This document shows positions 7,141 through 62,977 of a stretch of DNA of 64,000 bases, one piece after another. Position numbers and translations under genes: made by a program. The notes beneath the pieces were generated by a model, which ran no database searches, was not told where the DNA came from, and saw only the letters and a list, made by a program, of their open reading frames with translations. The DNA is from Prorocentrum cordatum (lineage: Eukaryota). The stretch's first letter is position 1. Each line of letters starts with the position of its first letter. The stretch lies in contig CAUYUJ010000003.1 of assembly GCA_963575745.1 (NCBI GenBank), forward strand, positions 620,001 through 684,000, written 5' to 3'.

Positions 7141-7503
7141 CCTGAAGAACCTTGAAGAAACCTGAGGACGTTTGGGGAACCCTGAAAGGCCAGGAGGAAT
7201 CCTGAAAAATCCGGTCGGAGGCTCAGAAACTTTTAGGAATCCAAAGGGCCCCGGAGGAGTACCGATGCACGCTGGGGGGATATGGGGAAGTCCTGCAGAA
7301 TCCCACCGAAGGGCCTTGAAACATCCAAAAAAGATCCTGAAGGACCCTGAGGAGACTTGAAGAATCCGGGTGCGAACTCAGAAATTCAAATGAATATTGA
7401 GGAGCCCCGAAGACTCCTGCAGGAACCCAAAGGAATCCCAAGAAACCCTGAGGAACCATCGTCCGGAACCTGGAGACACCGCGCGGGGTCAAAAGGAATC
7501 CTG
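7140..7503 (+). repeat. Degenerate GGAATCCT satellite (right arm, resumes at 9660-10040 after the LINE insertion)
   Basis: gaatcctga, gaaccctga and aggaatcc motifs on both sides of the LINE. Confidence 0.7.
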
Positions 7504-9659
7504 CGGCATGTTTGGGAAAATGCCATCCGGTCTTCAGCAGGGGAACATCTGCAAACGCAGACAGCGACGACCCAAAACCCCTGGAATTCTGATGTTGTCC
7601 TGCAGGCGAAAAGACGAAAAGAGACCGGGATCAGGAGAGAGACCCTTTCAGGAGGACAGCCTTGCATTGGCGCTGGAAACGGGCACTCCGGAAAGAAGTT
7701 CGGATTTGGAAGACTCGGCAGGCCGCAAGATCTTATCTGAGTTTCAAGTTTTATCCCGCTTGGACGTTGCATGTCACGTTCCGGTTGAGCGGGAAATTCC
7801 TGCCAAGCGGCCAAGCGACGGGGAGCTTGCGCGAGCTCTCGCCGTAGTGTACTCGAGGGAGACGCCGACTGAGAGACCGCTGCCGCGAAGTGTTCTTCGC
7901 GACGTTCCCCCGTTCAGCACTGCAGAACTCAGGGCGGCTTTGAGAAAGCTAGCGCGCAACGAGGCCGCAGACACCGAGGGCATTGCGTTAGAGCACATTC
8001 TGCATTTACCTCTGCGAGCAAAGAAGCTCATTCTTGACCAGTACAACAAATGTCTGAACGAAGTGGCTTTCCCGAAGGAGTGGCTGCATACGACTTTCAC
8101 AATGCTGCCCAAGCCGGGGGACGCGTCGAAGGCTTCCAATTGACGCCCAATCGCCGTGCAAAGGATATTCTACAAGATTCTGGCTGAAATGCTTCTGTCA
8201 AGGATTTCGCCGAAGTTGGAAGCAGCGCAGGGGAAAGATCAATGTGCGTACCGGCCTGGCTTCGGCGCCGACGAGGCTCTGCACTGCGTGGAACACATGA
8301 TAGGATTTGCGCACGCGTTTAACCAGGATCTTTGGATCGTCAGCCTAGACCTGAGCAAGGCGTTCGATAAAGTCTTTCACGAATCTGTTATCGAAGCAAT
8401 CTTGCAGCAAGGTGTAGATGAGGCTCACGCTTCCTTGTTGCAAGAGCTGTACTGGGGACAGACGGGCCAAGTTGGCACGAGCGACGTCTTCCAGCTCTTC
8501 CGGGGAGTTCGCCAGGGCGACGTCCTCAGTCCGTGCTTATTCAACGCAGTCATGGAGATGGTGTTCAACAGGTGGAAAGGCCGCCTCACTACGCAGGGTT
8601 GGGAACTCCCGGGACAGGCAGAACGCCTCACGAACATTCGATTTGCAGACGATGTTCTGCTTTATGCCCGCTCGCTGGAGGACGCAAAAATCATGCTCTC
8701 GCTCTTGACTGACGAGTTCCAGGCCGTAGGGCTACAACTGAACGCCGCGAAGACTAAGATCTTATCTTCCAGAGACGTGGGTGCGCCACCCGGCACTTGC
8801 AAAATCGAATGGATTGCTGGCCGCTGTTTTCAAGTGCTGTCCGCGAATGATTCCCACGCATATTTGGGGAGAGCCCTCAACTTGTCAAAGAACAGGGCAA
8901 CAAGTGCCGTCAAAAGGAGGATATCAGCGGCATGGCACCAATTCCAAAAGAAGCGCCACATTCTCATGAGCCAGCATATCGGTGCCAGTCACCGAATCAA
9001 GCTCTTCAACTCCACGGTATTGCCAGTCTTGCTGTACGGGTTGACCACCCTGGCGCTGAAGCCGCAGCACCACGCCATGCTCCGGGGAGCGCGGACAAAG
9101 ATGCTCCGAAGTATGGCTGGCTGGAGGGGAGCAAAAGGCGAAAGCTGGCAGGACACGATGCGGAGGATGCAGACGCGCGTGTCGAACATGCTGTCCACGG
9201 CAGCCTCCCCAGACGCATCGGAAAGGATGTTCTCTTTGAAATGGCGGCTGGCTCGCCGGCTCTTCAGCGCAGGAGTTGAGAAATTGGCTCCCCATCTTCG
9301 ACACCTGCAGTCTGCTCACAAGCGAGCACGAGGCAGACCACCGCTGCAATGGATAGATGACTGCAGACAGTTCTGCGCGCACGTCGGCGCAGATTCTCTG
9401 GAACAGGCGCTGCAAACGCCGGGGAGGGAGAAACAGTACATCGAGTTCTGCATGATGAAGGTGTGATGCCCCTCCCCCCCTCTCCCCTCCCTTCTCCCTC
9501 CCTCCCTGCCCCTCCTCTTCTGCATTTTTCCGAATTCCCAATTCCATTTTCTGTTCATGTCTCACAAATTTGTTGTCTGGCTGGTAGACTGATTGCACAC
9601 CCATGCCCTGCACAGGGCCGAGCAGCCGGCAGGCATGCTCGAGTGGCTCGCTCGCTCGC
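7504..9659 (+). mobile_element. 5'-truncated non-LTR retrotransposon (LINE, RTE-like)
   Basis: RT-encoding frames with LINE motifs, a pyrimidine-rich 3' UTR and a short (GCTC)n tail at about 9646-9659. No APE endonuclease domain is recognisable upstream. Boundaries are taken from where the flanking satellite stops and resumes. Confidence 0.85.
7800..9466 (+). pseudogene. LINE ORF2 reverse transcriptase, interrupted by an in-frame TGA at 8141-8143
   Basis: FPKEW..TTFTMLPKPGD..SN*RPIAV (canonical NW/YRPI), QCAYRPGFG, LDLSKAFDKV, GVRQGDVLSPCLF, IRFADD, GLQLNAAKTK, YLG and C-terminal RGRPPLQW. ORFs 7397-8143 and 8156-9466 are in the same frame. The 5' boundary is approximate. Confidence 0.92.
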
Positions 9660-12657: not shown

Positions 12658-12707
<50 letters not shown>

Positions 12708-12762
12708 ACACGCGTACTAATATTACACAGTAGTAGCAGTAGTAGTAGTAGTAGTAGTAGTC

Positions 12763-12798
<36 letters not shown>

Positions 12799-12932
12799 AG
12801 AGTAGTAGTTGTAGCAGTAGTAGTAAAAAGTAATAGCAATAGACGTTGCAGCAGTGATAGTAGTCGTAGTGGTAGAAGTAGATGTAGTAGTAGTAGTAGT
12901 AGTAGCAGTAGTAGTAGTAGTAGTAGTACGAC

Positions 12933-12966
<34 letters not shown>

Positions 12967-13002
12967 CGTCGTAGTCGTAGTCGTAGTCGTAGTCGTAGTC
13001 GC

Positions 13003-13057
<55 letters not shown>

Positions 13058-13106
13058 ATCGGAGTAATAGTATTGGTAATAGTGGTCGTATTAATAACAA
13101 TCGTAC

Positions 13107-13141
<35 letters not shown>

Positions 13142-13155
13142 TAGTAGCAGCAGCT

Positions 13156-13254
<99 letters not shown>

Positions 13255-13383
13255 ATAGTAGTAGTAATAGTAGTAGTAGTAGTCGTCGTAGTAGTAGTAG
13301 TAGTAGTAGTAATAATAGTAGTGGTAGTAGTAATACTGGTAGTAGTAATAGTAATAGTAGTCATAGTGGTAGCCGTAGTCGAG

Positions 13384-13432
<49 letters not shown>

Positions 13433-13438
13433 AAGTAC

Positions 13439-13526
<88 letters not shown>

Positions 13527-13570
13527 CGTAGTAATAGTAGACGCAGTACTCGTAGTAATAACAGCCGTAG
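11806..13570. repeat. Degenerate (TAG)n array with an embedded (CAG)n run
   Basis: gtagtagta throughout, with cagcagcag at about 13147-13177. Confidence 0.96.
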
Positions 13571-13841
13571 TTCTATAAGTCGTGGGAATGAAACTGCGGA
13601 TGCGAATGGGAAGAATACCTACAATCATCGTCATACAAAAAAGTAGGATGCCGCCTACGTCGTGCGGTAAACTAGCAACGGGAAACGTCTCGCCGTTCTT
13701 GGCCCCTGGGTGGCCCTCGAGCCCTCACCCGGCCCCAGGGCCGTCAGACACGACTCGGGATTTAAAGCCGATCCCCAGGAAGGGGCGCAGACCTCTGGGG
13801 AGCCACGTTGCGAAAAACACACGACGTCGGATATCGTGGAT

Positions 13842-18132: not shown

Positions 18133-18418
18133 CAGGAGCTAGTCACGGAGGGCGCGCCGCTGGATCTCCCCAGGGGGGGGGGGCTTGCCCCCGAAATGGA
18201 ACGAATTGCAACCGACTAGTTCCAATTCCAACCGTTCGGAGCGAATTGCAACCAGAAAAGAGACGAATTCCAACCACAAATGAGACCAATTCCAACCCAA
18301 CCAAAAATGAGACCAATTCCAACCACAGATGGGATCTTCGGAATTCTTCCGGATCCCTTCGAATTCTTCGGAATTCCTCAGGATTATTTACGACTCCTTC
18401 GGAATTCCTTGGGATTCA

Positions 18419-19350
<932 letters not shown>

Positions 19351-19906
19351 GTGCTTACGCTTCGGTGCCCTCTTGCTCATCCCAACGTAGTGCTCGTGCG
19401 CAGACCACAAACTAAGACCAATTCCAACTCGAGCACGCATGTTGGCTTCCAGATCCTCTGCGTTGACATAAGGGGTGCCACTTGGTCTTCGCAGTCGTCT
19501 TGGGCTTCTCTACAATTAAAATCCTATTGTGGGGCTATCCCAAGATGGTTGGGATTGGGCCCAGTTTGCTTGTCGCACTGGTTGGGATTGGTCCCAGTTG
19601 GTTGGGATTGGGCCCAGTGGGTTGGGATTGGGCCCACATGCGGCTTGCCCCCCCCCCTCCTTTCCCTGATCCGTCGTCGGGGACCCCGCCCTCACCCCCT
19701 TTCCCGATCCGTCGTCGGGGACCCCCCCCCCTTTCCCGATCCGTCGTCGGGGACCCCCCCCCCTCCCCCCCTTTCAAAAAGGGGGGAGGGGGGGGGTCCG
19801 ACCCTCCCCACCCCTCTCCCCCCCTCTTTCGGCCGCCAAAATCGACCCTCCCCCTCCCCCCCATTCGCCACGGCGCCCCCGAGCTCCGGAACCCGACCCC
19901 TACCAC

Positions 19907-43430: not shown

Positions 43431-44009
43431 AATACATGAGACGACGCGCCGAGAAAGGTTTCGGGACAGAGGCGAGCAGCAGCCAAATGTGAAAAGGTCA
43501 TACAATCACATACGGAAAACAAGACCCGAAACAAAACTGTAGATCCAACCACTTTCTGGGAGCACCCAGGGCAAAACTAACGATTGTTAGCCTCAATAAA
43601 AAGCAAGACGAGTAACTACACGAAAACACAATGTATAGCTGCCGCCGGATCCGTCCCGCGAGCGTGGCCCGTACCTTGCCGCAAAACGGACACAACAATG
43701 ATCACAGTTTCTGACACCTCTGTTTGGACCACTGGCCGCGGCCATAGAACCCGACAAGAGCTGGCTATGAAGATGGATCAATCCCAGCCTTGGCGCAACA
43801 ATGTCCGAGACGAGGAGCCTGCGGGGCACTGGGATCGGATTGCTCTTGCCGCTCCTCGTCTGGCTACCAGAATAGAAGATCTCTCGGCGCCGTTTGCGCT
43901 GAGGGCTGTCGCGGAGGGCAGTGGTCGGCGGCGGGCGGGAAGGGTGAAGTGAGAAAGGGAAGGCCCTCTCAAAGGCGGCGGGGCTTCTCAGAAGTGGTGA
44001 GAATAAAAA

Positions 44010-46630
<2,621 letters not shown>

Positions 46631-47439: not shown

Positions 47440-48306
47440 TCAGAAGGGCAGCTGCAGCGGGTGCAGCATGGAGCCGCAGTGAGGGATCGGCCCGTCAGGC
47501 CCAAGGGTGATGGCCTTCAGAAGGCTGAGCCCGATAATCAGCGCGGTGGCATTCTTGGCCGACGTCTTGGCCTTGCCGTACCACTCCGGCCTGTGCTCCT
47601 CCTGCATGTCGGCGAGCATGATGGCCAGGAGGAAGCCAGCGAGCGCGCCCCCAAAGTGCCCCATGAAGTCGACGCTCGGCGATATGGCCGACATCATGAC
47701 GCAGCTGCCCAGCATGAACGCGAACCACAGGAACACGCGACCCTGGCTCTCGCCGAGCAGCTCCCAGGTGAGCATCACCTCGGCGGCCCACACCCCGAGC
47801 AGGCCGAAGCCGCTGGTGGACGCGCCGACGGCGAGCTTCATGGGGTCCGCGACCACGGAGAGGAGGTTGCCCATGAAGCCACAGAAGAGGTACAGCAGAC
47901 AGAACTTCCGTCTCCCGAACTGCTTCTCCATGTTGCAACCGATCCGCAGCTGGAAGAAGATGTTGAAGAAGATGTGCAGCGGGTTCGCGTGGAGCATCAT
48001 CGGCAGGAACAGGCGCCACACGGCGCCGCCGGCGATGGCTGGCCCCCACGAGGCGCCCAGGAGGTAGAGGGAGCACAGCTTCGGAACGCCGTAGCTGTTG
48101 CCCAGCAGGACGGAGCCCGCGTACTCCACGAGCTGCAGCACCGAGATCCGCCAGATGAACGTGTCCGCGCTGAAGCCTGGGAACAGCGTGTCCATGAAGC
48201 CGCCCTCCCGCCTGGCCACCGCAGTGTCCTGGGCGTTCTCCTCTCCACTCCGCGAAGCGGGCTGCGTGGCCATCGGCGGCGGCACCATCATGGCCACCTT
48301 GACCAT
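47440..48306 (-). CDS. ROM1: Rhomboid intramembrane serine protease, alveolate ROM1-like, copy 1 (about 288 aa, intronless)
   Basis: LFPGF N-terminal motif, WRLFLPMMLHANPLHIFFN (WR and HxxxxHxxxN motifs), catalytic Ser in VGASTSGFG, catalytic His in GHFGG, multiple hydrophobic helices, strong GC3. Start placed at MVKVAMM; the frame stays open to 48669, so the start is uncertain. The symbol reflects recalled similarity to apicomplexan ROM1, not a search. Confidence 0.9.
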   Translation of the reverse strand: MVKVAMMVPPPMATQPASRSGEENAQDTAVARREGGFMDTLFPGFSADTFIWRISVLQLVEYAGSVLLGNSYGVPKLCSLYLLGASWGPAIAGGAVWRLFLPMMLHANPLHIFFNIFFQLRIGCNMEKQFGRRKFCLLYLFCGFMGNLLSVVADPMKLAVGASTSGFGLLGVWAAEVMLTWELLGESQGRVFLWFAFMLGSCVMMSAISPSVDFMGHFGGALAGFLLAIMLADMQEEHRPEWYGKAKTSAKNATALIIGLSLLKAITLGPDGPIPHCGSMLHPLQLPF

Positions 48307-49016
48307 CGAGGCGGCGGCGGCCGCGCCCGGGAGGCTTCCCGCCAGCGTCGCCGCGCCCGCCGCCCACACAGCCCCGCCGGCCACCGCGGCGCCCAGGGAC
48401 CTCGCCGAAGGCGCGGCCCCGGCGGCGGCGGCAGCCGGGGCGGCGGCGCGGACGGGCGCCAGCGCAGAGGGCTGCAAGCAGGCCTCGAGGAAGGCCCTGT
48501 GCCTCACACCGCGCGCCACGCGCCGCGGCGGCGCGCACGGGACGAAGATGAAGTGCTCCCGCGCCTCCTTGGAGCGGCACATCGCGTCCCGCCCCCGCGC
48601 CGCGCGGCGCTGGGGCCCGCGATAGACTGCGGCGAGCGCGGTGAGCTGCCAGCGTGCCCCTTTGGACAAGGGGGCTGGGGCCCAAACAGCGCCGGCATGG
48701 ATAGGGATGGAACGTGAGTGTGGCGCGCACGTCTGAGGTTCGACACTCTACCCTGCTCCGCCTCCTTCTGGTCCTCCTCCTGCCCCATCTGCCGATGAGG
48801 CTCCTCGTCCTTCCCCATCCGTGCTCGTTCTGGCTAGTCGTAGTATTCATGATGGTGGCAGTAGTAATGGTAATTAGTGGTAACGGTAGTGGTGCCATTG
48901 GGTACCGCGACAAGCGGTCGTTTGACACGTAAAGGCGCGCAAGGAAGAGAGCGGAGGTATCGGGATGGATCTGGGGATGTGAACACCTCACGTTGGGTCT
49001 CTCTTCCTCCCTCCTG

Positions 49017-49968: not shown

Positions 49969-50835
49969 TCAGAAGGGCAGCTGCAGCGGGTGCAGCATGG
50001 AGCCGCAGTGAGGGATCGGCCCGTCAGGCCCAAGGGTGATGGCCTTCAGAAGGCTGAGCCCGATAATCAGCGCGGTGGCATTCTTGGCCGACGTCTTGGC
50101 CTTGCCGTACCACTCCGGCCTGTGCTCCTCCTGCATGTCGGCGAGCATGATGGCCAGGAGGAAGCCAGCGAGCGCGCCCCCAAAGTGCCCCATGAAGTCG
50201 ACGCTCGGCGATATGGCCGACATCATGACGCAGCTGCCCAGCATGAACGCGAACCACAGGAACACGCGACCCTGGCTCTCGCCGAGCAGCTCCCAGGTGA
50301 GCATCACCTCGGCGGCCCACACCCCGAGCAGGCCGAAGCCGCTGGTGGACGCGCCGACGGCGAGCTTCATGGGGTCCGCGACCACGGAGAGGAGGTTGCC
50401 CATGAAGCCACAGAAGAGGTACAGCAGACAGAACTTCCGTCTCCCGAACTGCTTCTCCATGTTGCAACCGATCCGCAGCTGGAAGAAGATGTTGAAGAAG
50501 ATGTGCAGCGGGTTCGCGTGGAGCATCATCGGCAGGAACAGGCGCCACACGGCGCCGCCGGCGATGGCTGGCCCCCACGAGGCGCCCAGGAGGTAGAGGG
50601 AGCACAGCTTCGGAACGCCGTAGCTGTTGCCCAGCAGGACGGAGCCCGCGTACTCCACGAGCTGCAGCACCGAGATCCGCCAGATGAACGTGTCCGCGCT
50701 GAAGCCTGGGAACAGCGTGTCCATGAAGCCGCCCTCCCGCCTGGCCACCGCAGTGTCCTGGGCGTTCTCCTCTCCACTCCGCGAAGCGGGCTGCGTGGCC
50801 ATCGGCGGCGGCACCATCATGGCCACCTTGACCAT
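49969..50835 (-). CDS. ROM1: Rhomboid protease, ROM1-like, copy 2 (same protein as copy 1)
   Basis: Translation from MVKVAMM to the stop is identical to copy 1. Offset 2529 bp. Confidence 0.9.
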   Translation of the reverse strand: MVKVAMMVPPPMATQPASRSGEENAQDTAVARREGGFMDTLFPGFSADTFIWRISVLQLVEYAGSVLLGNSYGVPKLCSLYLLGASWGPAIAGGAVWRLFLPMMLHANPLHIFFNIFFQLRIGCNMEKQFGRRKFCLLYLFCGFMGNLLSVVADPMKLAVGASTSGFGLLGVWAAEVMLTWELLGESQGRVFLWFAFMLGSCVMMSAISPSVDFMGHFGGALAGFLLAIMLADMQEEHRPEWYGKAKTSAKNATALIIGLSLLKAITLGPDGPIPHCGSMLHPLQLPF

Positions 50836-52534
50836 CGAGGCGGCGGCGGCCGCGCCCGGGAGGCTTCCCGCCAGCGTCGCCGCGCCCGCCGCCCACACAG
50901 CCCCGCCGGCCACCGCGGCGCCCAGGGACCTCGCCGAAGGCGCGGCCCCGGCGGCGGCGGCAGCCGGGGCGGCGGCGCGGACGGGCGCCAGCGCAGAGGG
51001 CTGCAAGCAGGCCTCGAGGAAGGCCCTGTGCCTCACACCGCGCGCCACGCGCCGCGGCGGCGCGCACGGGACGAAGATGAAGTGCTCCCGCGCCTCCTTG
51101 GAGCGGCACATCGCGTCCCGCCCCCGCGCCGCGCGGCGCTGGGGCCCGCGATTGACTGCGACGAGCGCGGTGAGCTGCCAGCGTGCCCCTTTGGACAAGG
51201 GGGCTGGGGCCCAAACAGCGACGGCATGGATAGGGATGGAACGTGAGTGTGGCGCGCACGTCTGAGGTTCGACACTCTACCCTGCTCCGCCTCCTTCTGG
51301 TCCTCCTCCTGCCCCATCTGCCGATGAGGCTCCTCGTCCTTCCCCATCCGTGCTCGTTCTGGCTAGTCGTAGCAGTAATAGTGGTAGTGGTGGCAACGTT
51401 CCTGATCGGGACCGAGACTGACGGTCGTATGACAGATAAGAGCACGCGAGGATGAAAAGGGATGGAAGGGAACTGACAGGTGGGATGCACGCACCTCACG
51501 TTCGGCCTCTATTCGTGTCTCTTTTTTTTCCTACAACTTATAATACTCATACTGTACCTTCCCCTCCTCCTCTTTCTTTTATCATCTGAGCCGCAATGAC
51601 AATCTTAATTGTAATTGCTCATGGTCGGTCGCAGTAGGCTGGCAACAGGATAATACCGGTTCTTATGCCGCAGCTACAAATTTGACTGCCACTGCCACTA
51701 CCAACGCCACTACCGCTACAGCAAAAGCAACTGTCCTTACAGGACACAAGCATTGGGAGGATGAGCAGGAGACGGGGACGGAGGAGTGCCAGCAATAACA
51801 TTAACAACATCAGCATAAGCAGCAGCAGAGCGGGTCCGGACGATCGTCATGCTTGGGAGAGGGCGAACTTGGGATACGCGCGAACCCCCACACCCACCAC
51901 ACCCCACACGTCCCCGCTCTGTCTCTTCTCTGCCCATCCACACTGGCGACACACTGCTACGTGTTGCTATATATATATATATATAACGCTGCGACGTCTA
52001 AACCGACGGCTGTTGCTACAATTGCTGCTGACGCCTTCGTGACCGTCGCATCCATCACTGCGATTTGTGTTGCTAATACTTGTGCTACCAAAACTATTGC
52101 CAACAATCAATAAAATAACGGAGGGAAGAGTGGCACACACATCACCCGTATGAGGGGACGAACGTGAGCTGTGCGCGCGCCCCTTCAACATCCACCCCCT
52201 CATCGCTCCAAGTCCCCCTGCCTTGCAACCAACCGTTGCTCCTAAAATTCCAGCGACTGCTGATACCATTACTCCTGCTTTCGAAAACCAGTCCAATAAA
52301 TTATTGTCGGGCGAGGACAAGGAAGAGAGGAAGCAGCATCGCCAGGATGAGCAGGACGAGAACGATGGGCCGAAACTTGTCTCCTGACTACGTATGCTTC
52401 CACATCTCGTGGGCTCCGCGTGATGCCTGGGTGTGCGAGGCATGATCCTGGTAAGGGCCCGTTGGCGAAACGCGGGCGCCACGTGTTGGCTGGAGGGTCA
52501 GGTTCCGCCTGGTGGGCGCCGCGTGGGCGCTCCC

Positions 52535-53055
52535 AGCGCTGGCTGCACCACATAGCTTCCACCATTCGGTTTGCACCACATAGCTCACACCACACAGCTT
52601 CCAACACATGGCTTACTACACGTAGCTTGCATCACATAACTTGCACGGCATAGCTTACTCCGCGTAGGTTGCACCACATCGATTGCATCACACAGCTGAC
52701 ACAGCATCACTTGCACCTCATTGCTTGCACCACACAGTTTGCTCACACTAACTTGCACCATAAGTCTCCGACGCATGGCTTGCACTACATAGCATGCACC
52801 AACTAGACTCGTGCACCACAGAGCTTGCACTACATGGCTCCCACCACCTAGCATCCACCACATAGGCTGCACCACAATGGTTGCACCACACTACTGACAC
52901 CACCTAGCTTCCACCGCATAGCTTGCACCACACAATTTGCACCACATAGCTGACACCACATGACGTGCACTACATCGCTTACTCCACATCGCGTGCACTA
53001 TTTGGTCAACGCCGCATGCCTTGCACCACGTATCTTGCGCCGCATAACGTGCACT
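52535..53055 (+). repeat. Degenerate (TTGCACCACATAGC)n ~14-bp satellite
   Basis: gcttgcaccacata units. The same family recurs at 54740-54900 (+) and inverted at 55140-55295. Confidence 0.88.
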
Positions 53056-53328
53056 GTATATATGTATGTATATCCGCCGGCCCTCTTGCGGGGCCATGAG
53101 GCTCCGTGGCTTAGGCTTGCTGCTCCCTGCTCCAGTTCCAGTTTCCAGTCTCCAATGTTACATTTCTGTGCTCTGCTTCCGACTGTAAACTGTTGACGTC
53201 CGCGCGAGGGAGGGGAGCCGAAAACCGCTCTGGTTACCTTCACATCGGGGGGGGGTTCAGGGACTGGTGAAAATTACCCCAGTGCGACCCTACCTAGAAG
53301 TTGGAGCCCCTAGGAAGCCAGCATGAGT

Positions 53329-54073
53329 TGCTATACTATGCTATACCATGCTATGCTGCGCTATGCTATGCTATGCTATGCTGCGCTATGCTATGCTATG
53401 CTATGCTATGCTGTGTGATGTTATGTTAAGCTATGCTATGTCATGCTGGGCTGTGCTGTGCTATGCTATGCTATGATATGCTATGCTAAGCTGCGCTGTG
53501 CTATGTTATGCTATGGTATGCTATGATATGCTATGATATGCTGCGCTATGCTATGCTATGGTATGAGTTGCTATGTTATGCTATGATTTGCTATGCTAAT
53601 GCAGCGCTGCGCTATGCTAAGCTAAGCTAAGCTAAGCTCGGCATCTGCCGCACATTGCGTTTGCGTTGCCTTTCCTTTGCTTTGTTGTTGCTTTTGCTTT
53701 GCTTGTGTTGCTTGGGCTTTGCTTTGCTGCCGCTGCTGATGCTTTGCCTTTGCTTTGCTGCTATGCTATGTTCTGCTCTGCTATGCTTTGCTATGCTATG
53801 CTATGCTGCGCTGTGCTATGTTGTGCTGTGCTGTGCTGCGCTATGCTATGCTATGCTATGCTATGCTATGCTGCGCTATGCTATGCTATGCTGGGCTGTG
53901 CTATGATATGCTGTGCTGCGCTATGCTATGCTATGCTGTGATCTGCTATGCTAAAGCTCAGCGAAGCTAAGATGAAGGTAAGCTAAGCTAAGATAAACCT
54001 GAGCTAAGATGGAGCTAAGCTAAGCTAAGATGAAAGAAGCTAAGCTAAGATGATATAAGCAACGCTAAGCTAA
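53329..54073. repeat. Compound pentamer microsatellite (CTATG)n/(CTAAG)n/(CTTTG)n
   Basis: Blocks: ctatg 53331-53617, ctaag 53618-53637, ctttg 53655-53760, ctatg 53761-53950, ctaag 53951-54073. Confidence 0.95.
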
Positions 54074-56199
54074 GGGGGCGTAACTGGGGGAACCGCGGGG
54101 CGGATGCCGGGGGAACCGCCCAGGGCGCGTTCCACTGCCCGGCCCCTTTAAGCAAAGAAAGTAAGAACCCTTCTAGGCAGAGCCTAGGAAGGGAATGCAT
54201 TAGATCGCCCCCGAAGCCATAATCTATCGAACGTGAATTACACCGTAATCGTGCCCCCGGGGTCAGAACCCCTTGTCAATTATACAACGTTCGCGTCCCC
54301 GAGGTCATACACCCTTGCACATTGCACTATGTTCGTGCTCCCGAGACCATAGTTCGTTGGAAAATGGAAGAGATGTCGCATCTCACGCGTTCGTAAAGCA
54401 AGCAACATTAGCATCCCCGAAACCAGGACCCCTCGTAACTTCTTAGCTCTTCGCGTCACCGAAATCATAAAACCCATATGCAATATGTGCGCTCTCGAGG
54501 CCACAATCCGTCAAAAAAGCCTCCAAGCCGCCCAAGAGTGCTCCAAGACGCCCAAGATGGTTCCAAGACGGACTGAAAGGCGCTCCAAGAGGCCCCCAAG
54601 AGCGCTCCAAGAGCCGAAGCTGATTCAGGGCGGCGTCCAGGCCTCACGATATAGCTCTTGCATACATACCTCACGATCCGAAAGAAGGGGCCGGCGACAG
54701 GGGGCGAAGCCCTTGCGGACATATTTCACCGAATCGCCTACTCCACATAGCTTGCATCACAGAGATTGAACCACGGAAATTGTAGCACATTGCTTCTACC
54801 CACTAGCTTCAACCACAGACAACAACTTGCAACGCATTGGTTGCACCACACGGCCTCCACCCCGAGGGTTGCAGCACCTCGTTTCCGAGCGCAGCTTGCA
54901 CGTTTGGAGTGCACAAACTAACTTTGTGAGTCCACGATGGCAAGCACCTTCTTATGTTCAAAAGTACATATACATATGTGTGGCTATGCGTGGGCGTTCT
55001 GTCGTATATGTACCAGTTATAACTTGCGTATACCAAAGAGTATATGCATATATACATGTAGTATGCTTGCCGACATCAGCCCCGCACGATAAGCGATTGC
55101 ACTGTGTTGTGAGAGTGCGGTGCGTGAGCCCCACACCATTAGCCATGTGGTGCAAGCTCGTCGGTGCAATCCATGCGGTGTAAGCTATGTGGTGGGAGTG
55201 AGCGGTGTCAACTAAGTGGTGCAAGCTAAGTGGTGCAAGTTGTGTGGTGTAAGTTATGCGGCTTCATGCTCTGTGGTGCAAGCTATGCGGTGCAGTGGGG
55301 GGAAGAAGGGAGGAAAACATCGACGAAGACGACGAGAGACACCCCGACACGACGCGGAAAAGCGAGTCACACATTACGGCAAAATGTCGCCGCGCCGTTT
55401 GCCCTCGACGCGCGTGACGCGCCCAAGTGGACGACGCCGACACCACGACAGACCCACGACAAGCTCTGCGCCCGCGCCCACATGGACGCGGCCGGCACGG
55501 CGGAAAACCCACGGCAAACCCACCGCGCCTGAAGCGGCGTTTGCCCTGGTGGCCGAGGCGCCCTCCCCAAGATGGAAGGCCGCGCGTCGGAGCACACGGC
55601 GCGGCGACAGATCAAGGCGAATGACAAAAGGTTGGGGTCTTCATCATCGCGACTCAAAGAATGAAATCCCGCGTCAATGCTCCAGCCGGGTGTCTGGGCA
55701 GCTCCACAGAAGGCACCAACGACAAAATGGTCAGAAACGATACATACACTGCCGAGGTGGCCCTAAAAGTATCCCCGTTCAGCTGGGCAAAACGAAACAC
55801 AGAAAGATGAAGGGAAGGAGATAACAGACCCCAGAAGGCAAGGGTAAACGGACTAATGCGTGGTAATCCCCGATGGTCCGACCGACCACAAATACAATCA
55901 TGCCTCACACCATGATGCAGAGAGGAGGGTATCGCAATACACAACACAGCTCGAATCATGCGCTGCTTAAAAAGATATGTCATCCCACCAGCCCTTTGGC
56001 CGTAGGTGGTCTAACGAGTTATTTCTTTCCTCTTCCCAAACCATCTGCCTTTCGGGGGAGGGTACCCTCCAGTCCTCCCCCTCGCCCATTTGTCCCAGCC
56101 ATCCTGTGGTGTTTGGTCTTCGTTTTGAAGAGACGGTGCCCCGTGTCCCCCTCTCCTCTCCTCCCTCCTCCCATCACCCCCCTCACTTTGGCACACCCC

Positions 56200-56545
56200 T
56201 CACACGTTTCGTGGGCCTATTGGGGGCTCTACCGAAGGCCCCAGCAGCTGCGTTCACATGCCGCCACCCCTCCACGTTTCACATGTTTCGTGGCCGCATG
56301 AAGGGGGCTCCACGAAAGGCCCCAGCGGCTGCGTTTACATGCAGCTACCCCTCTTCTACGGCGCACCCCTCACACGTTCCGTGGCCACATAGGGAGCTCC
56401 ACCGACGACTCCACTGGCATGGTTCGCATGCGTTTCCCCCACCTAGTACAGCGCTTCGTGGCCCCATAAGGGGGGACCGCCGAAGGCCCCAGCGGCGGTG
56501 TTCGTATGCGTTCCCCCCTGCCAACTCGGCGTTTCGTGGCCCCCG
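56200..56545. repeat. Diverged ~75-90-bp tandem repeat
   Basis: ttcgtggcc..at.ggg.gctc.acc.aaggccccag units at about 56207, 56286, 56377, 56455 and 56532. Confidence 0.8.
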
Positions 56546-59097
56546 CCTGGCGCAAACGTCCAGAACAGCGCGGAGCTAGAAGATGAGGAAGAGAAACAAT
56601 CCTTTGCCCAGATATGCAGATTTCCACTGGGAAAGGGCACATATGTCCCTCTGCCCTTGGTCGAGGGGGTAGTGAAGGTAGCGAAATAAGGTGAAAGGTG
56701 TCTCAAGGGAAATACCCCTCGAACAAATACCCCAGCATGGGCCCCCCTACCACACATGCCGCACGGAACAATGTTGGCAAGGCCAAAAAAGCAAAGGACG
56801 TCCTGCAGCATCGCCTCACAGGTGCCATAGAGGAGCATGTCCAGCCACTCGCAAAGCAAGAAAGGGAGTAGGACAGAGAGAAGAAACGGGAACGGCTCCA
56901 ACGCAGAAACTTGTGTTGCTGGGGATCCGCGCATGTAAGCCCATGACATGAACACACAGAAAACATAACAGTATGCATGCTCCGACCTTCTGACACATAT
57001 CAAATAAACACTGCGATGCCTAATGCTTGACGCCTGCGGACAACAATACGTGGGTCAATGTACATGGCCAGTTCTTTCAAGCAGCAACACATGAGCACAC
57101 AATTGGAACCAACGCGTTCCGACACTGTATAACAAGACCAAGCAACAACCTCCCTGGCAAGAACACCAGCCTGTTGGGCCAGGTCCGCCTAGCCCATTCA
57201 AACATCCGGACAAAACAACCCCGAGGTCGGCCTATGAGCAGACCAAACACAAGGAACACATGGTGCGACGATTTACATGCGCACAGGAGACATCACGGTA
57301 GCAGAATCGTGCGAGCACCAGAAGTACCTGCGCTCAGCCATAGCACGTCGTCAGAGCGTGCCGTCCCGTAAAAGACATAGGCACAGCGCGACAAGAAAAC
57401 CTGCTCGTATGGCACAAGCAAATCGAGTCTCGCGAATTTCAATGCTGAGAAGATTCGTAGTTGCTTCTCGCGTTTGGAAAAACTCTGAGACTTGTTGTGT
57501 AGTGAGGATGCGTGCGGATCCAGATAACTTGCTGCCTCGCCAATGAGCTATGAAGATCGTCAGGAAACACTGCGACCCACCTCTCGAACTTCGACTAAGT
57601 ATGTTTAGCACCAGCTGCACGGTGGCAGATACAACGTTCAGGATGCGAACGGCGAGCAACTTCGTTGAGTCACGTTGTCCTGTTACCTCTGTCTGTGGCT
57701 CAATCATGCGCCCCTCAACCCAATCAGGACGAGAAATGTTTGGACATGTTGGGCGGGTCCTCTCAATCATCTAATGATGCTGAACAGCCTCTGGTGGCAA
57801 GAACGCGTTGAGCATACTGAACTAACCGTGCGTGGATGACCAGGGACGTTGCGCGGACACCGACATTTACAAGCACGCGCGCAAGAGCAACACACCCGCA
57901 CACACACATACGCGAAGTGATAGCACATTTCTCTCCCGAAACCAAGAGTGGCCCGCCTTCGTGCCTTCGTGGCCGGCATCCCAGGCCGCCAAAGGCTCCA
58001 AAAGCGCGTACAAAAAACTTAACTGCGGGCATAGGCGCAACAGTTGCTGGCAAAGCGCGCAACTGAGAGAGGCAGGTGCTTCCCCGTCGGGCGTTGACCC
58101 AGACTTGCACGGGAGCTGAATGCATAACGTCGAGGTCCTCTTGCATTATCTACGCCGCGCTGGTAGCACGAGACGACGCGCAACCCTTCCCTGTGAAGCT
58201 TGATTGCGCCCAGAGTGCCGTAACTACGTCGCAGATGTTGGGTTCTGTCGCGAGGCCCGAGCCGAGAGGCGCCCGGGGCGCGGCCTCTTGCTCCCACGAG
58301 CTGGCGGCGCGCATCCCCCCGCTCTCCTCTGCGCGTGGCCGACGCTCTCACGAGGGCCGCCCGCGCAGCGGGCATCGAGGTGAGGCGCTTCTGTCCCCCC
58401 TTGGCGCTAGGAGGGCGGCTCGCGGCTCGCGGCGCGGGCGCCTGCTGAGTTGGATGGCCTATGCAGGCGTGCGCGCATGACTGCCGAAGGTTCGGCGACT
58501 CCAGATCCCAGCGCACTTCTTTAATAGGAAGAGTTCTGGAGCGAAGAGTGCGGGCGCACAAGGCGCACAAAAGGTCTTGTACCGAGCAGCGCTTGGTCAG
58601 CCATAGTCCGAGCCCAAGAGCAAACATAAGAGCCCCGCACAAGGCGCACAAGGCCCCCTGCACAAGGCCTCCGCACAAGACTCGCGCGAGTACTCTGTCT
58701 TGGGGGTACTGTGACCTCCCCTGTCGCCACTGGAGGGTTGCCAGCTGGATTATGGTTTCTGTCGCCAAGCGCCGCATGTCTTGCAACACTACATGTTCTG
58801 TAGCAGCATGGCCCTGTAATTGGCAGCACGTTTGCGTCAAACCGAACGGCTCGTTGCAGGCAACATTGCAAGTCGTGCAACATTAAGCGCTGGTGAGAAC
58901 AACTTGCAGCTTGTGACAAGTTGCAGCTCTGCTGGCCCTCGGAAGTGGCAGCTTGCGGCCTCTGGCAATAGCAACTTGCGGCTTGTGGCAAGTTGTACAG
59001 CGGTGGCCCTTGTGGCCCTTTCCAACTCCCTCTCGTCGTTCTCACAAAAATGACATGCTCACGATCATTGTTCATCTCCGGCTTCGCTTTCTAGCGC

Positions 59098-60408
59098 TCA
59101 CGCGTCGAAGAACAGCTCTTCGAGGTTGCGGGTGCCGAAGCTCGGGAGGCTCTGGGCGGAGTGGACTGTGAACGCCGTCGAGAGCGAGGCCGCGGACTCG
59201 TAGGATCTCTTGCGGAACAACTGCTGGGGCTGCTGGTCGCGGACGTGCCGGTTGCCTTCCTCGTCGCCGGATTCCTCCTGCGCCTCGTCGACCAAGTTCG
59301 AGTCGGAGAATGACCGGGAGCCCTGCAGGCCGCGCCAGAAGCCCTGCCGCTGCAGCCGCTGCAGCAGCTCGTCCAGGCTGCGGTCCACGGTGCACTTGGC
59401 CGCCTGGGCCTCGAAATGCCGCGTCGTCATGCGGGCGCGGTGGATCACTGGCACCAGGGAGGGCTCCCTGCTCGTGGCGGCCGGCGTGGCCGGCCTTGGC
59501 TGCAGGAAGGGGTGCGACAGGGCCTCCGCCACGGACGGCCGGCCGCTCGCCCTGCGCGCCAGGAGGCTGCCGACGAAGCCCGCGGCGGCCGCCGACGGGC
59601 CCCCCACCTCTGAGTTCCTCCGCTGGTACAGCGGACGGGGGTAGCCGGTGCTGATGACCGCCATCATCTCGCAAGTACTCAGAATGGCAGGCTGGTACGG
59701 GAAGTCCCCGTACAGCAGGACGTACGCCGTCGCCCCGAGCGACCACATGTCTGTGCTCAGGGAGTGACCCTCGTTGCGCACCATCTCCGGCGACATGTAA
59801 GGCGCCGTGCCATAGCACCCGTAGAGGAGCCGCCCGCTCCAGGGCAGCTGGGCGGCGAAGCCGAAGTCGCAGAGCTTCACGGTGCCTCCGGTCGCAAACA
59901 GGTAGTTGTCGCTCTTGATATCGCGGTGCACGATCCGTAGACTGTGTAGGTGCTGCACGGCGAGTGCCATCTCCAGGAAGACGCGGGCGATCTCGCACTC
60001 GCCCATGTATTGCATGTGGGTGAGCCTGTGCACGAGGGCCGCCTCGCAGCATTCCATGACCATGTATACCAGCCTGTAGTCCGCATAGACCTCGTAGAGT
60101 TCGACACAGTGTGGATGCCTTCCAATCCGCGCCCAGATGCGCACCTCGTCTTGGATCTGCCTCCTCGCCTTTTGCTGGTAGCTCTCCAGGCACAGGGGGA
60201 TGATCTTCACCGCGGTGCGCCGGTGGTTGCCGCTGCGGGCGGCCAGCACCTGTCCCCAGGAGCCCCTCCCGAGGGTCTGGCCGAGGCTGTACCTCTGGTG
60301 GAAGTCCCCGGCCGTGCCCCAGCGCCAGGGGGGCAGCCTGCCCCGGCGGGGCTGGTGGCCGCAGGCCGCGCGCGGGGTGGCCTCCAGCGCCGGGCGGAAG
60401 CACCCCAT
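59098..60408 (-). CDS. Ser/Thr protein kinase, CAMK/CDPK-related without EF hands (436 aa, intronless, N-terminal MGC)
   Basis: GRGSWGQV (Gly loop), AVK, E in helix C, HPHCV, HRDIKSDNYL, LCDFG, GTAPYMSPE, DMWSLG, R..ALSHPFL. The first ATG after the SL relic gives MGCFR, a potential myristoylation/palmitoylation signal. Confidence 0.93.
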   Translation of the reverse strand: MGCFRPALEATPRAACGHQPRRGRLPPWRWGTAGDFHQRYSLGQTLGRGSWGQVLAARSGNHRRTAVKIIPLCLESYQQKARRQIQDEVRIWARIGRHPHCVELYEVYADYRLVYMVMECCEAALVHRLTHMQYMGECEIARVFLEMALAVQHLHSLRIVHRDIKSDNYLFATGGTVKLCDFGFAAQLPWSGRLLYGCYGTAPYMSPEMVRNEGHSLSTDMWSLGATAYVLLYGDFPYQPAILSTCEMMAVISTGYPRPLYQRRNSEVGGPSAAAAGFVGSLLARRASGRPSVAEALSHPFLQPRPATPAATSREPSLVPVIHRARMTTRHFEAQAAKCTVDRSLDELLQRLQRQGFWRGLQGSRSFSDSNLVDEAQEESGDEEGNRHVRDQQPQQLFRKRSYESAASLSTAFTVHSAQSLPSFGTRNLEELFFDA

Positions 60409-60484
60409 GTGTGTCTGGCGGGCGCGGCGACCCCCGCGTGGCGCGTGCGCGCCGCGGGCACCCTCCGCTGAGCACAGGGCCACT

Positions 60485-60506
60485 CGTGAGCCAAAATGGC
60501 TACGGA
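60485..60506 (-). other. Genomic relic of the dinoflagellate spliced leader (DinoSL)
   Basis: The - strand reads TCCGTAGCCATTTTGGCTCACG against canonical DCCGTAGCCATTTTGGCTCAAG (21/22), 76 nt upstream of the kinase ATG and on the same strand. Confidence 0.95.
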
Positions 60507-61303
60507 ACTATGTCGCAGGTGCCTGGTCGTTAGTGACACCTTGTGTTCGGAGTATTCTGGATGTGTTCTGTGCACCCACTGGATGCTCCAACATGGCCTT
60601 AATACCTTCGAAGGGTCGCTCACACGCCCCTTCCAGATGTCTCCCTGACGCCCCCAAAGCATCCTCCAGAGGGCGCCCAACGGCCTCCAATAAGTCTTCC
60701 AGAAGCCTTCAAGAAGCTCTCGTCCTGCGAAGTTCCCAACCGTGTTACACATAATTAGCACTCCAGTGGCCTTCTGGGACCATGGCTGGAAATGCGGCGT
60801 GACTATTTCAATCGCTGCACGCCTCCTTGTTCGCACGTGCCATAGGCACACCATCACGGCAGACCAGACCAGCACGCTCAGAACATGTGAACATGTTAAG
60901 ATCAACGACCTTGAATTCCACCAGGCACTTTTGGACCTGGACAAGACGCTGCTCGTGGAGCGAAAGCGAAGTGGAGAGGCAGGCGCGCGGGTGCGCCTTT
61001 TGCACCGTGCCGCCCCTACCGCGCACCATGGCGCCGCGACGGCACGTGCGCTGCACCGAGGTGTTTCTGGCCCTCAAGGTGCCTGCAGCTTCTAGCACTA
61101 GTTCGAAGCCCTTGGAGCTGTCTTCGACTACACGCAAGAGCGACCCTGGGTAAGAGTAACCTTTGTTGCGCGGCTTTCATCACGTTCGGCGATCGGGGCT
61201 CCATTGGGCCCGCACCACAGGTCACTCCGGCGACAGGTTAATCTTACGCCTAGTCGAGTTCTCTGGGCCTCTTGAGGGGCGCTCTCTCGGAACTCGAATG
61301 TTC

Positions 61304-62095
61304 GAGGATGTCGCAGGCGAAACGGGCCAGACTACCCTTCGCGCGGCAGATCGGGACCCAGAATTAGGAGGATGTCTCAGGCGAAACGAGCCAGACCAAC
61401 TCGCGCGTAGCATCTCAGGTGAATGTGCTGAATCACTTCTCGCGCGGCAGCTCGGAGCACCGAGTTGCGAGGATGTTTCAGGCGAAACGGGCCGTACACC
61501 TCTCGCGCGGCAGCTCTGAGTCCCGACAGCTCTGAGTCCCGAGTTGCGTGGATGTTTCAGGCGAAACAGACCAGACCACCTCGCGCGCGGCATCTCGGAG
61601 CCCCGAGTTGCGAGGTTGTCTCAGGCGAAACGGGCCGGACCACCTCTCGCGCGGCAGCTCTGAGCCCCGAATTGCGAGGATGCCAGGATGCCTCAGGCGA
61701 AACAGGCTGGACCACCTCGCGCGGGCCATCTCGGAGCCCCGAGTGGCGAGGATGCCTCAAGCGAAGCGGGCAGGACCACCTCTCGCACGGCATATTTGAG
61801 CCCTGAGTTACGAGGATGTCTCGGGCGAAACGGGCTGGACCTCCTCGCGCGGGGCATCTCGGAGCCCCGAGTGGAGAGGATGTCTCAAGCGAAACGGGCA
61901 GGACCAACTCTCGCGCGGCATATTTGAGCTCTGAGTTGCGAGGATGTCTTAGGCGACACGGGCTGCACCACCTGGCGAGCGGCATTTCGGAGCCCCGAAT
62001 TGCGATGATGTCTCAGGCGAAACAGGCCGGACCACCTCTCGCGCGACATCTCGGAGCTTAGAAATTTGGTGGTGCCTCAAGCGAAACGGGCCGGC
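61304..62095. repeat. 64-bp minisatellite, about 12 diverged units
   Basis: gaggatgtctcaggcgaaacgggccggaccacctctcgcgcggcatctcggagccccgagttgc-type units, e.g. at about 61748, 61812, 61876 and 61940. Confidence 0.93.
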
Positions 62096-62977
62096 CGCGC
62101 CGATCTCTTGGATCTGCGCTTGACCCCCTCCCTGGCGCGCGGAGCGCACCACGGGCGGCGCCGGAGGCGCCAAGCGCAGATCCAAGAAATCCGCGCGGAC
62201 CGTCGAAAGGTCATATTTATCCAGGGTTTCTTCTTCGAGAAAAACTTGGGCCACATCGGCCCATGACACCCCTGGCAACACCCGACAAGCGGCTGTGAGC
62301 TCGCCAGCCGGCCAGGAAGGGCCGCTGCCCGCAGACTCTGCGGGCGAGCCCCCCGTCGCCTGTTCAAAGAGGGGGCCCTAAAGATGAGAACCTCAACCCA
62401 TGGAGTTTCAACCTGTGATGGGGTAACCCAAACCAGCATAAACACAAACTTTTGAGGGGTCTGCGCGGATTTCTGAAATCCATGTTGGACCCCCTCCCTG
62501 GCACGCAGAGCGGCGGCGTCGGAGGCGCCGCTGTGGGCAGAGATCCGCGCAGGCCGTCGAGAGTTTACGTTGCGGGTTCTGGAGACCCTGAACCCAAAAA
62601 TGTGGTCATCTCTTGGGAGGGAGACTTTTGCTTCCGCCGGCTTCCGCCGGCATTTCGCCGGCGGAGGCGGCCTAGTCTTACTTCCGCCGCCTTCCGCCGC
62701 CCGTCCGCCGAGACGAGATGGCAACTCCGTCGATCCTCGAAGGCAAGGCCCTGTTTGGAACGCCCCATGAATCTGATGCAGCTTTTACTTCTTTGAGATC
62801 CGCTTCCTGTCCTCAGGGGCCAATCCCTCAGCCCTCAGGGCCCCGTCCGCGAGCCGCTGGCCCACCACGCCTTGGCAGCCTGCGCAACTGCTCCGCTGCG
62901 CGGGCAGCGCCTTCTGCCAGCGGCAGCTCGCGCTCACGCCTCCTCAACACAGCTCTCCTTGTGCAAACCGAGCGGTA

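What the first reader, a model, noticed from the sequence alone, without database searches (positions are those of the whole stretch)
59098..60506. Kinase retrogene carrying a full-length genomic spliced leader
Seen in sequence: a 21/22 DinoSL copy, including its 5'-most bases, lies 76 nt upstream of an intact, intronless kinase ORF. Established: DinoSL is added to mRNAs by trans-splicing, and genomic SL relics mark mRNAs that were reverse-transcribed and reintegrated. Inference: this is a complete cDNA integration, recent enough that the leader is nearly intact and the ORF still open. The internal AG of the relic (CCGTAG|CCATTTT) or the AG just after it (CACGAG) could be the new trans-splice acceptor. 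A second, much more decayed relic may follow (GGCCCTGTGCTCAG); that is speculative. No poly(A) tract or target-site duplication was found by eye.
Basis: partly seen in the sequence, partly recalled or inferred. Interest (0 to 1): 0.75.

Follow-up and report, generated by a model that had tools for sequence, protein, structure and literature searches.

The report
Dinoflagellate kinase gene with leader relic
An intact, expressed, intron-free protein kinase gene of a Prorocentrum-like dinoflagellate carries an almost perfect copy of the spliced leader just upstream, the well-known mark of a gene copied back into the genome from its mRNA, so it is an ordinary example of a described phenomenon.

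Summary
A 21/22 match to the dinoflagellate spliced leader (DinoSL) lies at 60485-60506 (-). It is the only match in 64 kb, and 0 of 100 shuffles gave one. It sits 76 nt upstream of an uninterrupted 436-aa ORF (59098-60408, -) with a full-length Pkinase domain (E 1e-52).

Public contigs, including poly(A) metatranscriptomes, match the ORF and about 0.8-1.2 kb of 3' UTR exactly and collinearly, with no intron-like joints. A second copy about 3-8% diverged appears in the same runs. It matches a Prorocentrum cordatum protein, P0003.

Not found:
- No poly(A) remnant or target-site duplication.
- No significant second relic (467 of 2000 shuffles score as well).
- No SL-RNA-gene features: AG rather than GT/GC follows the leader, and the copy is single.

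No whole genome is held. So the parent copy, its introns, and DNA-read support for the junction could not be tested, and the mRNA 5' end was not seen.

Genomic DinoSL relics mark over 20% of Symbiodinium genes and are best kept at -50 to -100 (PMC5585692). Kinases are the most enriched retrogene class (PMC12014239).

Verdict: a real but ordinary new member of a known kind. "Recent, complete cDNA insertion at this locus" is not shown.

The parts
60485..60506 (-). DinoSL relic, 21/22 (A21>C), first base included
   Evidence: It is the only hit with up to 3 mismatches in 64 kb, and 0 of 100 shuffles gave a hit.
60409..60484 (-). 76-nt GC-rich leader between the relic and the ATG. It has no ATG. 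It holds AG dinucleotides at 60484/3, 60469/8, 60464/3 and 60416/5. Further candidate acceptor AGs lie at 60501/0 (inside the relic) and 60509/8 (1 nt upstream of it).
   Evidence: direct reading. The 'second relic' is not significant (467 of 2000 shuffles).
59098..60408 (-). Single-exon ORF of 436 aa plus stop: a CAMK/Aurora-like Ser/Thr protein kinase. All catalytic motifs are present: GRGSWG, K68, E88, HRD 161-163, DFG 181-183, SPE 206-208.
   Evidence: ORF. (PF00069, E 1.1e-52, 1-263/263). (these residues are invariant among 4 homologues). (closest solved structures: CaM-dependent kinases at E 2e-35, Aurora A at about 1e-32). (exact collinear contigs, no intron-like joint).
57930..59097 (-). 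3' UTR. 58300-59097 is covered by exact contigs of 1213-1286 nt in 4 of 4 runs, including a poly(A) RNA library. Those records run a further 337-374 nt beyond 58300, so the 3' end lies near 57926-57963 by inference. There is no genomic poly(A) there.
   Evidence: records 1, 9, 17, 25. (no A-run).

Best explanation
This is an expressed, single-exon Ser/Thr protein kinase gene of a Prorocentrum cordatum-like dinoflagellate. Its lineage went through retroposition. A mature kinase mRNA carrying the trans-spliced 22-nt DinoSL at its 5' end was reverse-transcribed and integrated, which left the leader encoded in the DNA.

Shown: the relic, the intact collinear ORF, transcription into poly(A) RNA, and a close expressed paralogue.

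Inferred:
- The reverse-transcription step itself.
- That the copy is now transcribed as part of a same-strand gene run. The two rhomboid genes downstream are also on the minus strand.
- That it receives a new leader at an AG inside or next to the relic. Published transcript relics start at CCA, which implies use of the internal CCGTAG|CC site.

It stays open whether this locus is the original insertion or a later DNA-level duplicate of an older retrogene.
For: - The relic is 21/22, includes the first base, is on the same strand at -98 to -77 from the ATG, and is unique in 64 kb; 0 of 100 shuffles gave a hit.
- No ATG lies between the relic and the ORF start.
- The ORF holds one uninterrupted full-length Pkinase domain.
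- Exact contigs tile 58300-59195, 59514-59799, 59855-60218 and 60193-60421 with no intron-like joint, and a poly(A) metatranscriptome (X15) holds them.
- 20 of the 24 listed runs, from 10 studies, hold part of the stretch.
- Among the 40 listed of 71 differences to the second copy, 17 are synonymous and 23 nonsynonymous. With 317.7 synonymous and 990.3 nonsynonymous sites, the per-site ratio is about 0.43. The catalytic core is almost unchanged.
- A reverse-transcriptase ORF (RVT_1, E 2.4e-31) lies in the same window at 8144-9463 (+), so RT-encoding elements live in this genome.
- Literature (passages read): relics within 500 bp upstream mark 23% of S. kawagutii genes and are best kept at -50 to -100 (PMC5585692). 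Genomic relics keep CCGTAG (PMC6616646). Ser/Thr kinases are the most enriched retrogene class, and P. minimum has 477 transcript-detected retrogenes (PMC12014239).
Against: - There is no poly(A) remnant. The 1.8 kb after the stop holds no A-run of 5 or more and no 20-mer with 11 or more A.
- There is no target-site duplication. The best word shared with the 30-nt 5' flank is 8 nt, and 38% of shuffled flanks do as well. A 13-nt near-match is reached by 29 of 200 shuffles.
- No intron-bearing, relic-free parent was identified. No genome is held, and the only close relative with a named organism, P0003, is known as a protein only.
- The relic itself was not shown to be in, or cut out of, the mRNA.
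- No run on record as DNA was available to confirm the junction between the relic and its 5' flank.
Confidence: 0.8

Rival explanations
1. The locus is a secondary copy. The leader relic came from an older retroposition, and this locus arose later by ordinary DNA-level (dispersed or segmental) duplication of an existing retrogene. It is therefore neither a recent nor a primary cDNA insertion. This reading is compatible with the retrogene lineage and disputes only 'complete, recent insertion here'.
For: No poly(A) remnant or target-site duplication bounds the unit. A paralogue about 3-8% diverged shares both the coding sequence and 3' UTR sequence: P0003's model reads on into 58860-59360, and variant contigs and joints lie in 58859-59195. 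64.8% of P. cordatum genes are dispersed duplicates (PMC10666404, passage). Relics at -50 to -100 are reported to be kept by selection, so a 21/22 relic need not be young (PMC5585692).
Against: Shared coding and 3' UTR sequence is equally expected for two retrocopies of one mRNA. Nothing shows homology between the two loci upstream of the relic. P0003's first 69 residues find no counterpart in the window, but that gene model is doubtful.
Confidence: 0.4
2. The 22-mer belongs to an SL RNA gene or pseudo-SL gene that happens to lie next to a kinase gene.
For: The leader is full length, including its first base, as in SL RNA genes.
Against: The leader is followed by AG, not by the GU/GC that starts every SL-gene intron described (PMC6616646, passage). 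Position 21 is mutated, which destroys the CAAG end. There is a single copy in 64 kb, no tandem array, and no 5S or other Rfam hit in the window. Only 76 nt with no ATG separate it from an expressed ORF on the same strand.
Confidence: 0.03
3. Assembly artefact: cDNA-derived sequence was joined to genomic sequence.
For: In the four runs laid, no contig covered the junction between the relic and its 5' flank, and none of the 24 listed runs is on record as DNA.
Against: The unit lies inside a contig given as 1,518,389 bases, with 3.5 kb of non-genic sequence upstream and 59 kb downstream in the window. There is no poly(A) at the 3' end, which a cDNA clone would carry. Genomic relics of this kind are common in independent dinoflagellate assemblies (PMC5585692).
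Confidence: 0.03
4. The match to the leader arose by chance.
For: None.
Against: 0 of 100 shuffles gave any hit with up to 3 mismatches, and the observed hit has only 1 mismatch. Its orientation and distance from the ORF are as expected for a relic.
Confidence: 0.005

Closest known systems
Symbiodiniaceae retrogenes tagged by genomic DinoSL relicts (Song et al. 2017, PMC5585692; review PMC6050394)
   Same: A DinoSL or its relic lies within 500 bp upstream of an ORF on the same strand. The relic is in the -50 to -100 zone, where relics are best preserved. The gene is intact and expressed.
   Different: The genome is a different order (Prorocentrales-like). The gene here is single-exon, whereas the Symbiodinium retrogenes averaged several introns (Table 2 of that paper). 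The parent was not identified here.
Recycled processed cDNAs seen in dinoflagellate ESTs, including Prorocentrum (Slamovits and Keeling 2008; seen here only as cited in PMC5585692 and PMC6050394)
   Same: The same mechanism is inferred: an SL-capped mRNA is reverse-transcribed, integrated, then re-expressed and trans-spliced again.
   Different: Those relics were seen in transcripts and start at CCA, truncated at the internal AG. Here the genomic copy keeps all 22 positions, as reported for genomic relics (PMC6616646). The transcript 5' end was not seen here.
Ser/Thr kinase retrogenes in dinoflagellate transcriptomes (PMC12014239)
   Same: Protein kinase activity is the most enriched function among retrogenes. 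P. minimum had 477 retrogenes.
   Different: That survey used DinoSL plus relic tandems in transcripts. Whether this particular gene is in its lists was not checked (supplements not read).
LINE-mediated processed retrogenes of mammals
   Same: An intronless copy of an mRNA that has stayed functional.
   Different: Mammalian copies typically carry a poly(A) tail and target-site duplications and lack a 5' tag. Here the 5' tag is present, and the poly(A) and target-site duplication are absent.

Membership tests
DinoSL-relic retrogene (dinoflagellate recycled cDNA) | DinoSL or a relic of 9 or more exact bases within 500 bp upstream of the ORF, on the same strand (criterion of PMC5585692) | tested here: met
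   21/22 at -98 to -77, with 20 consecutive exact bases.
DinoSL-relic retrogene (dinoflagellate recycled cDNA) | Coding region collinear with the mRNA (parental introns lost) | tested here: inconclusive
   The ORF and Pkinase domain are uninterrupted, and contigs are collinear with no intron-like joint. No parental gene structure could be read, because no genome is held.
DinoSL-relic retrogene (dinoflagellate recycled cDNA) | Identifiable parent over 60% identical with fewer relics (PMC5585692) | not testable with these tools
   The candidate is P0003, 91% identical over 69% of the query.
DinoSL-relic retrogene (dinoflagellate recycled cDNA) | Re-expression with a new leader spliced in or near the relic (SL plus relic tandem at the mRNA 5' end) | tested here: inconclusive
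   Expression of the ORF and 3' UTR was seen. The listed exact contigs stop at 60421, and the 5' end was not displayed: 140 pieces and 80 loose ends were not shown.
Classical processed retrocopy (LINE-type) | 3' poly(A) remnant and flanking target-site duplication | tested here: not met
   No A-run of 5 or more. The best flank repeat is 8 nt, which is within chance.
SL RNA gene | Leader followed directly by a GU/GC donor and a short intron | tested here: not met
   AG follows the leader, and position 21 is mutated (criterion from PMC6616646).
SL RNA gene | Tandem arrays, often with 5S rRNA | tested here: not met
   One copy in 64 kb. No Rfam family at gathering score.
Protein kinase superfamily (Pkinase PF00069), CAMK/Aurora-like | Pfam score above the gathering cut-off over the whole domain | tested here: met
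   179.5 bits against a cut-off of 31.7, matched 1-263/263.
Protein kinase superfamily (Pkinase PF00069), CAMK/Aurora-like | Catalytic motifs intact (Gly loop, VAIK Lys, HRD, DFG, APE) | tested here: met
   GRGSWG, K68, H161-R162-D163, D181-F182-G183 and S206-P207-E208 were read and are invariant. Motif names are recalled.

The most novel reading that the evidence does not exclude
The nearly intact leader at -98 to -77 is not just a fossil but the working 5' control element of the gene. On this reading its TTTT/TTTG box acts as the basal promoter or start site (the hypothesis of PMC5585692), so this retrocopy brought its own promoter and may even be expressed with a DNA-encoded leader without fresh trans-splicing. 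The absence of any RNA cover in 60522-60825 in the four runs laid does not contradict this, but it is no evidence for it either.
Probability: 0.1. Interest if true: 0.5.

Novelty: new member of a known kind. Interest (0 to 1): 0.13.

Why it matters
The locus is a clean single example of how dinoflagellates enlarge gene families by copying mRNAs back into the genome. It has a full 22-nt genomic leader, an intact expressed kinase, and a close expressed paralogue. It could serve as a test locus for two questions: where a retrocopy is re-spliced, and whether the relic acts as a promoter. It opens no new question. Genomic DinoSL relics are described for thousands of genes, and kinases are the class most often found among them.

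Tried and rejected
- Whole-genome search for a parental copy: no genome is held for this window.
- Earlier notes of this scan: none for this genome and none by sequence.
- Metagenome and metatranscriptome loci: 12 relatives at 33-51% identity. None holds the leader core or its last 10 bases, so they say nothing on relics in orthologues. The two closest JGI proteins (P0002 at 82%, P0004 at 60%) were not among the loci returned.
- Second relic: rejected.
- Target-site duplication and poly(A): none.
- The 13-nt near-repeat across the flank-relic junction (60518-60506 against 58234-58222) is within chance: 29 of 200 shuffles reach it.
- P0003's first 69 residues: no significant match in 60250-61500 or elsewhere in the window (best E 0.014, at an unrelated site).
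- Rfam: 0 families in the window.
- Read laying: there was no cover at all in 60522-60825 in 4 of 4 runs. Cover in the 60421-60521 bin was uneven (depths 2.5, 140, 89, 0), and at least part of it belongs to short pieces with loose ends on both sides (X13 at 60417 and 60453). A part without cover proves nothing, and the true mRNA 5' end and acceptor site were not seen.
- Only X15 of the four runs is on record as RNA. That the other three are transcriptomes is my guess, from their small size and from cover limited to genic parts.
- The 60974-61039 match with loose ends on both sides in 4 of 4 runs was not resolved.

Full report
**1. Observation**

On the minus strand, 60506-60485 reads TCCGTAGCCATTTTGGCTCACG.
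- This is 21 of 22 positions of the dinoflagellate spliced leader DCCGTAGCCATTTTGGCTCAAG. The consensus is as printed in PMC5585692 and PMC7245778.
- The only change is A>C at position 21, and the variable first base is present.
- A search allowing 3 mismatches finds this site alone in 64 kb, and none of 100 dinucleotide shuffles gives any hit.
- Searches for the 15-mer core and a 10-mer core find nothing else above chance.
- The next 76 nt (60484-60409) are GC-rich and hold no ATG.
- The ATG at 60408 opens a 436-codon frame that ends with TGA at 59100-59098.

**2. The gene**

The protein matches Pfam Pkinase over the whole model in one stretch (residues 40-302, positions 1-263 of 263, E 1.1e-52, 179.5 bits).
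- The Gly loop (GRGSWG), K68, E88, HRD 161-163, DFG 181-183 and SPE 206-208 are all present. They are invariant in an alignment with its three closest relatives.
- The nearest solved structures are calcium/calmodulin-dependent kinases (E about 2e-35) and Aurora A.
- It is best called a CAMK/Aurora-like Ser/Thr kinase. No further domain was found.
- The coding GC3 is 0.91.

**3. Whose genome**

No whole genome is held for the window.
- The protein database holds the window's own protein on a contig of 1,518,389 bases.
- Its closest relative with a named organism is P0003, an 'unnamed protein product' of Prorocentrum cordatum. It is 91% identical over 69% of the query and lies on a different contig of 676,897 bases.
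- Two unnamed JGI proteins follow, at 82% and 60% identity. Everything after those two is at most 51% identical.
- In public runs that hold the window's sequence exactly, a second variant is present at similar depth.
- Of the 23 listed nonsynonymous differences of that variant, 20 reproduce P0003's residues. Two lie outside P0003's aligned part, and one differs.

So one organism carries both genes. The window is from P. cordatum or something very close to it; this is an inference.

**4. Expression and structure**

Of 24 listed runs, 20 hold part of 58600-61000, and they come from 10 studies. Six of those 20 are on record as RNA.

Four runs were laid on 58300-61300 at 85% or more likeness: X1, X2, X13 and the poly(A) metatranscriptome X15.
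- Contigs with 0 differences tile 58300-59149/59195, 59514-59719, 59631-59799, 59855-60009, 59980-60103, 60076-60218 and 60193-60421.
- No joint that would mark an intron lies in the ORF. The joints listed belong to the diverged variant (58924>58994, 59195>59161) or are short skips of unknown content.
- The 3' contigs are 1213-1286 nt long and run 337-374 nt beyond 58300. The 3' UTR is therefore about 1.15 kb and ends near 57926-57963. This assumes those parts are collinear, which was not displayed.
- The segment 59250-59543 was seen only in a form with 7-9 differences.
- Only 32 of 172 pieces and 24 of 104 loose ends were printed, so the mRNA 5' end was not seen.
- The listed exact contigs stop at 60421, which is 13 nt into the leader.
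- The four runs gave no cover in 60522-60825. That proves nothing on its own.

**5. Hallmarks of retroposition**

Present:
- The 5' leader.
- A single-exon coding region collinear with RNA.

Absent:
- A poly(A) remnant. No A-run of 5 or more and no 20-mer with 11 or more A lies in 57300-59097 on the gene strand.
- A target-site duplication. The best word shared between the 30-nt 5' flank and the 1.8 kb after the stop is 8 nt, and 38% of shuffled flanks do as well. A 12-of-13 match across the flank-relic junction is reached by 29 of 200 shuffles.

The proposed second, decayed relic aligns with score 12, which 467 of 2000 shuffles of the 76-nt leader reach. It is rejected.

**6. Rivals**

- SL RNA gene. 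The 18 types of sequence found after the SL in the Fugacium SL genes all start with GU or GC, whereas pseudo-SL genes have lost these donor sites. SL genes sit in clusters, some with 5S rRNA (PMC6616646, passages). Here AG follows the leader, the CAAG end is mutated, the copy is single, and Rfam finds nothing in the window. This rival is rejected.
- Chance. Excluded.
- Assembly artefact. This could not be tested with DNA reads, because no listed run is on record as DNA. It is unlikely: the unit lies deep inside a 1.5-Mb contig and lacks the poly(A) that a cDNA would bring.
- Secondary DNA duplication. This rival is open. The locus may be a later DNA-level duplicate of an older retrogene rather than the primary insertion.
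  - The paralogue shares coding and 3' UTR sequence, which fits either origin.
  - Dispersed duplicates make up 64.8% of P. cordatum genes (PMC10666404, passage).
  - P0003's first 69 residues have no counterpart in the window. However, its gene model is doubtful. RNA of the variant is collinear with the window's N-terminal coding region (60193-60421, 16 differences, 0 gaps). It also shows no indel where P0003's model changes frame, after residue 368 (59250-59543, 0 gaps).

**7. Constraint**

Of the 71 differences reported, 40 were listed and fall in the ORF. Seventeen are synonymous and 23 nonsynonymous. With 317.7 synonymous and 990.3 nonsynonymous sites, the per-site ratio is about 0.43.
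- The changes cluster in the N-terminal 62 residues and after residue 220.
- Residues 63-220 carry only two synonymous changes and one M>V change.
- Both copies thus look functional, with moderate constraint.
- The figure is partial. It may also mix strains and copies.

**8. How it most likely works**

Established knowledge:
- Dinoflagellate mRNAs receive the 22-nt DinoSL by trans-splicing.
- Integrated cDNAs of such mRNAs keep the leader in the DNA.
- These copies are transcribed again and receive a new leader, often at the AG inside the old one. Transcript relics therefore start at CCA, while genomic relics keep CCGTAG (PMC7245778, PMC6616646, PMC5585692; passages).

Shown here:
- The genomic leader.
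- The intact, collinear, poly(A)-expressed kinase gene.
- A close expressed paralogue.
- A reverse-transcriptase ORF in the same window (RVT_1, 8144-9463 +, E 2.4e-31).

Inferred:
- Reverse transcription and integration in this gene's ancestry.
- Re-splicing at one of the AGs at 60509/8, 60501/0 or 60484/3.
- Transcription as part of a same-strand run, together with the two rhomboid genes at 47440-48582 and 49969-51111 (-).

The position of the relic at -98 to -77 falls in the -50 to -100 zone, where Song et al. found relics best preserved and proposed a promoter role. A 21/22 relic is therefore not proof of youth.

**9. Comparison and novelty**

- Song et al. (PMC5585692) found relics upstream of 23.2% of S. 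kawagutii genes; the review PMC6050394 gives 22.3% for S. minutum.
- The transcript survey (PMC12014239) found protein phosphorylation and Ser/Thr kinase activity to be the most enriched retrogene functions. It counted 477 retrogenes in P. minimum.
- The main text of the P. cordatum genome paper (PMC10666404) reports DinoSL on transcripts of 20.1% of gene models. A search of that text for 'relic' found nothing. Its supplements were not read.

This locus is therefore one more member of a well-described kind. It is not filed as a classical LINE-type processed retrocopy, because poly(A) and target-site duplication were tested and not found.

**10. Verdict**

- The retrogene reading is supported for the gene's lineage (confidence about 0.8).
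- 'Recent, complete cDNA insertion at this locus', the second relic and the choice of acceptor are not shown.
- Interest is low.

Noticed in passing
window 8144-9463 (+), with 7394-8143 (+) directly before it in the same frame: An ORF with a reverse-transcriptase domain (RVT_1, E 2.4e-31). The preceding stop-to-stop ORF abuts it in frame, so a single in-frame stop may interrupt a longer retroelement ORF. It is a possible source of RT activity for retroposition in this genome.
   Followed up: partly
window 47440-48582 (-) and 49969-51111 (-): Two identical 380-aa single-exon rhomboid-domain ORFs (PF01694, E 1.7e-31) in a tandem duplication with a 2529-bp period. The 300-nt flank blocks are 100% identical. 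They lie on the same strand as the kinase. No DinoSL relic was found upstream.
   Followed up: partly
protein P0003 (Prorocentrum cordatum) against window 58860-60291: The public gene model of the paralogue changes reading frame after residue 368 and reads on through the 3' UTR. Its first 69 residues match nothing in the window. Variant RNA contigs are collinear and gap-free in both places. Either the model is mis-predicted or it is a third, damaged copy.
   Followed up: partly
window 60974-61039: A 66-nt stretch is matched by contigs in 4 of 4 runs, with the same unlike sequence on both sides (loose ends at 60974 and 61039). It could be an exon of another transcript or a dispersed repeat. One exact low-depth contig covers 60853-61049 in X1.
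   Followed up: no
window 61257-62138; 52535-53056; 53285-54003; 56190-56519: Tandem repeat arrays: a 64-bp unit (about 12 copies) 750 bp upstream of the relic, a 14-bp satellite (CACCACATAGCTTGCA-like), a 10/15-bp array, and an array with about an 81-89-bp unit. Similar AAGTTGC/GCAAGC motifs recur in the kinase 3' UTR at 58880-59000.
   Followed up: no
window 44000-46600, also about 1200-2500, 12700-13600 and 18400-19400: Long low-GC stretches with strong GC skew and repeat periods of 9, 12 and 15 bases. They translate to Ser-rich runs in several frames. This is simple-sequence DNA, and no Pfam family was found.
   Followed up: no
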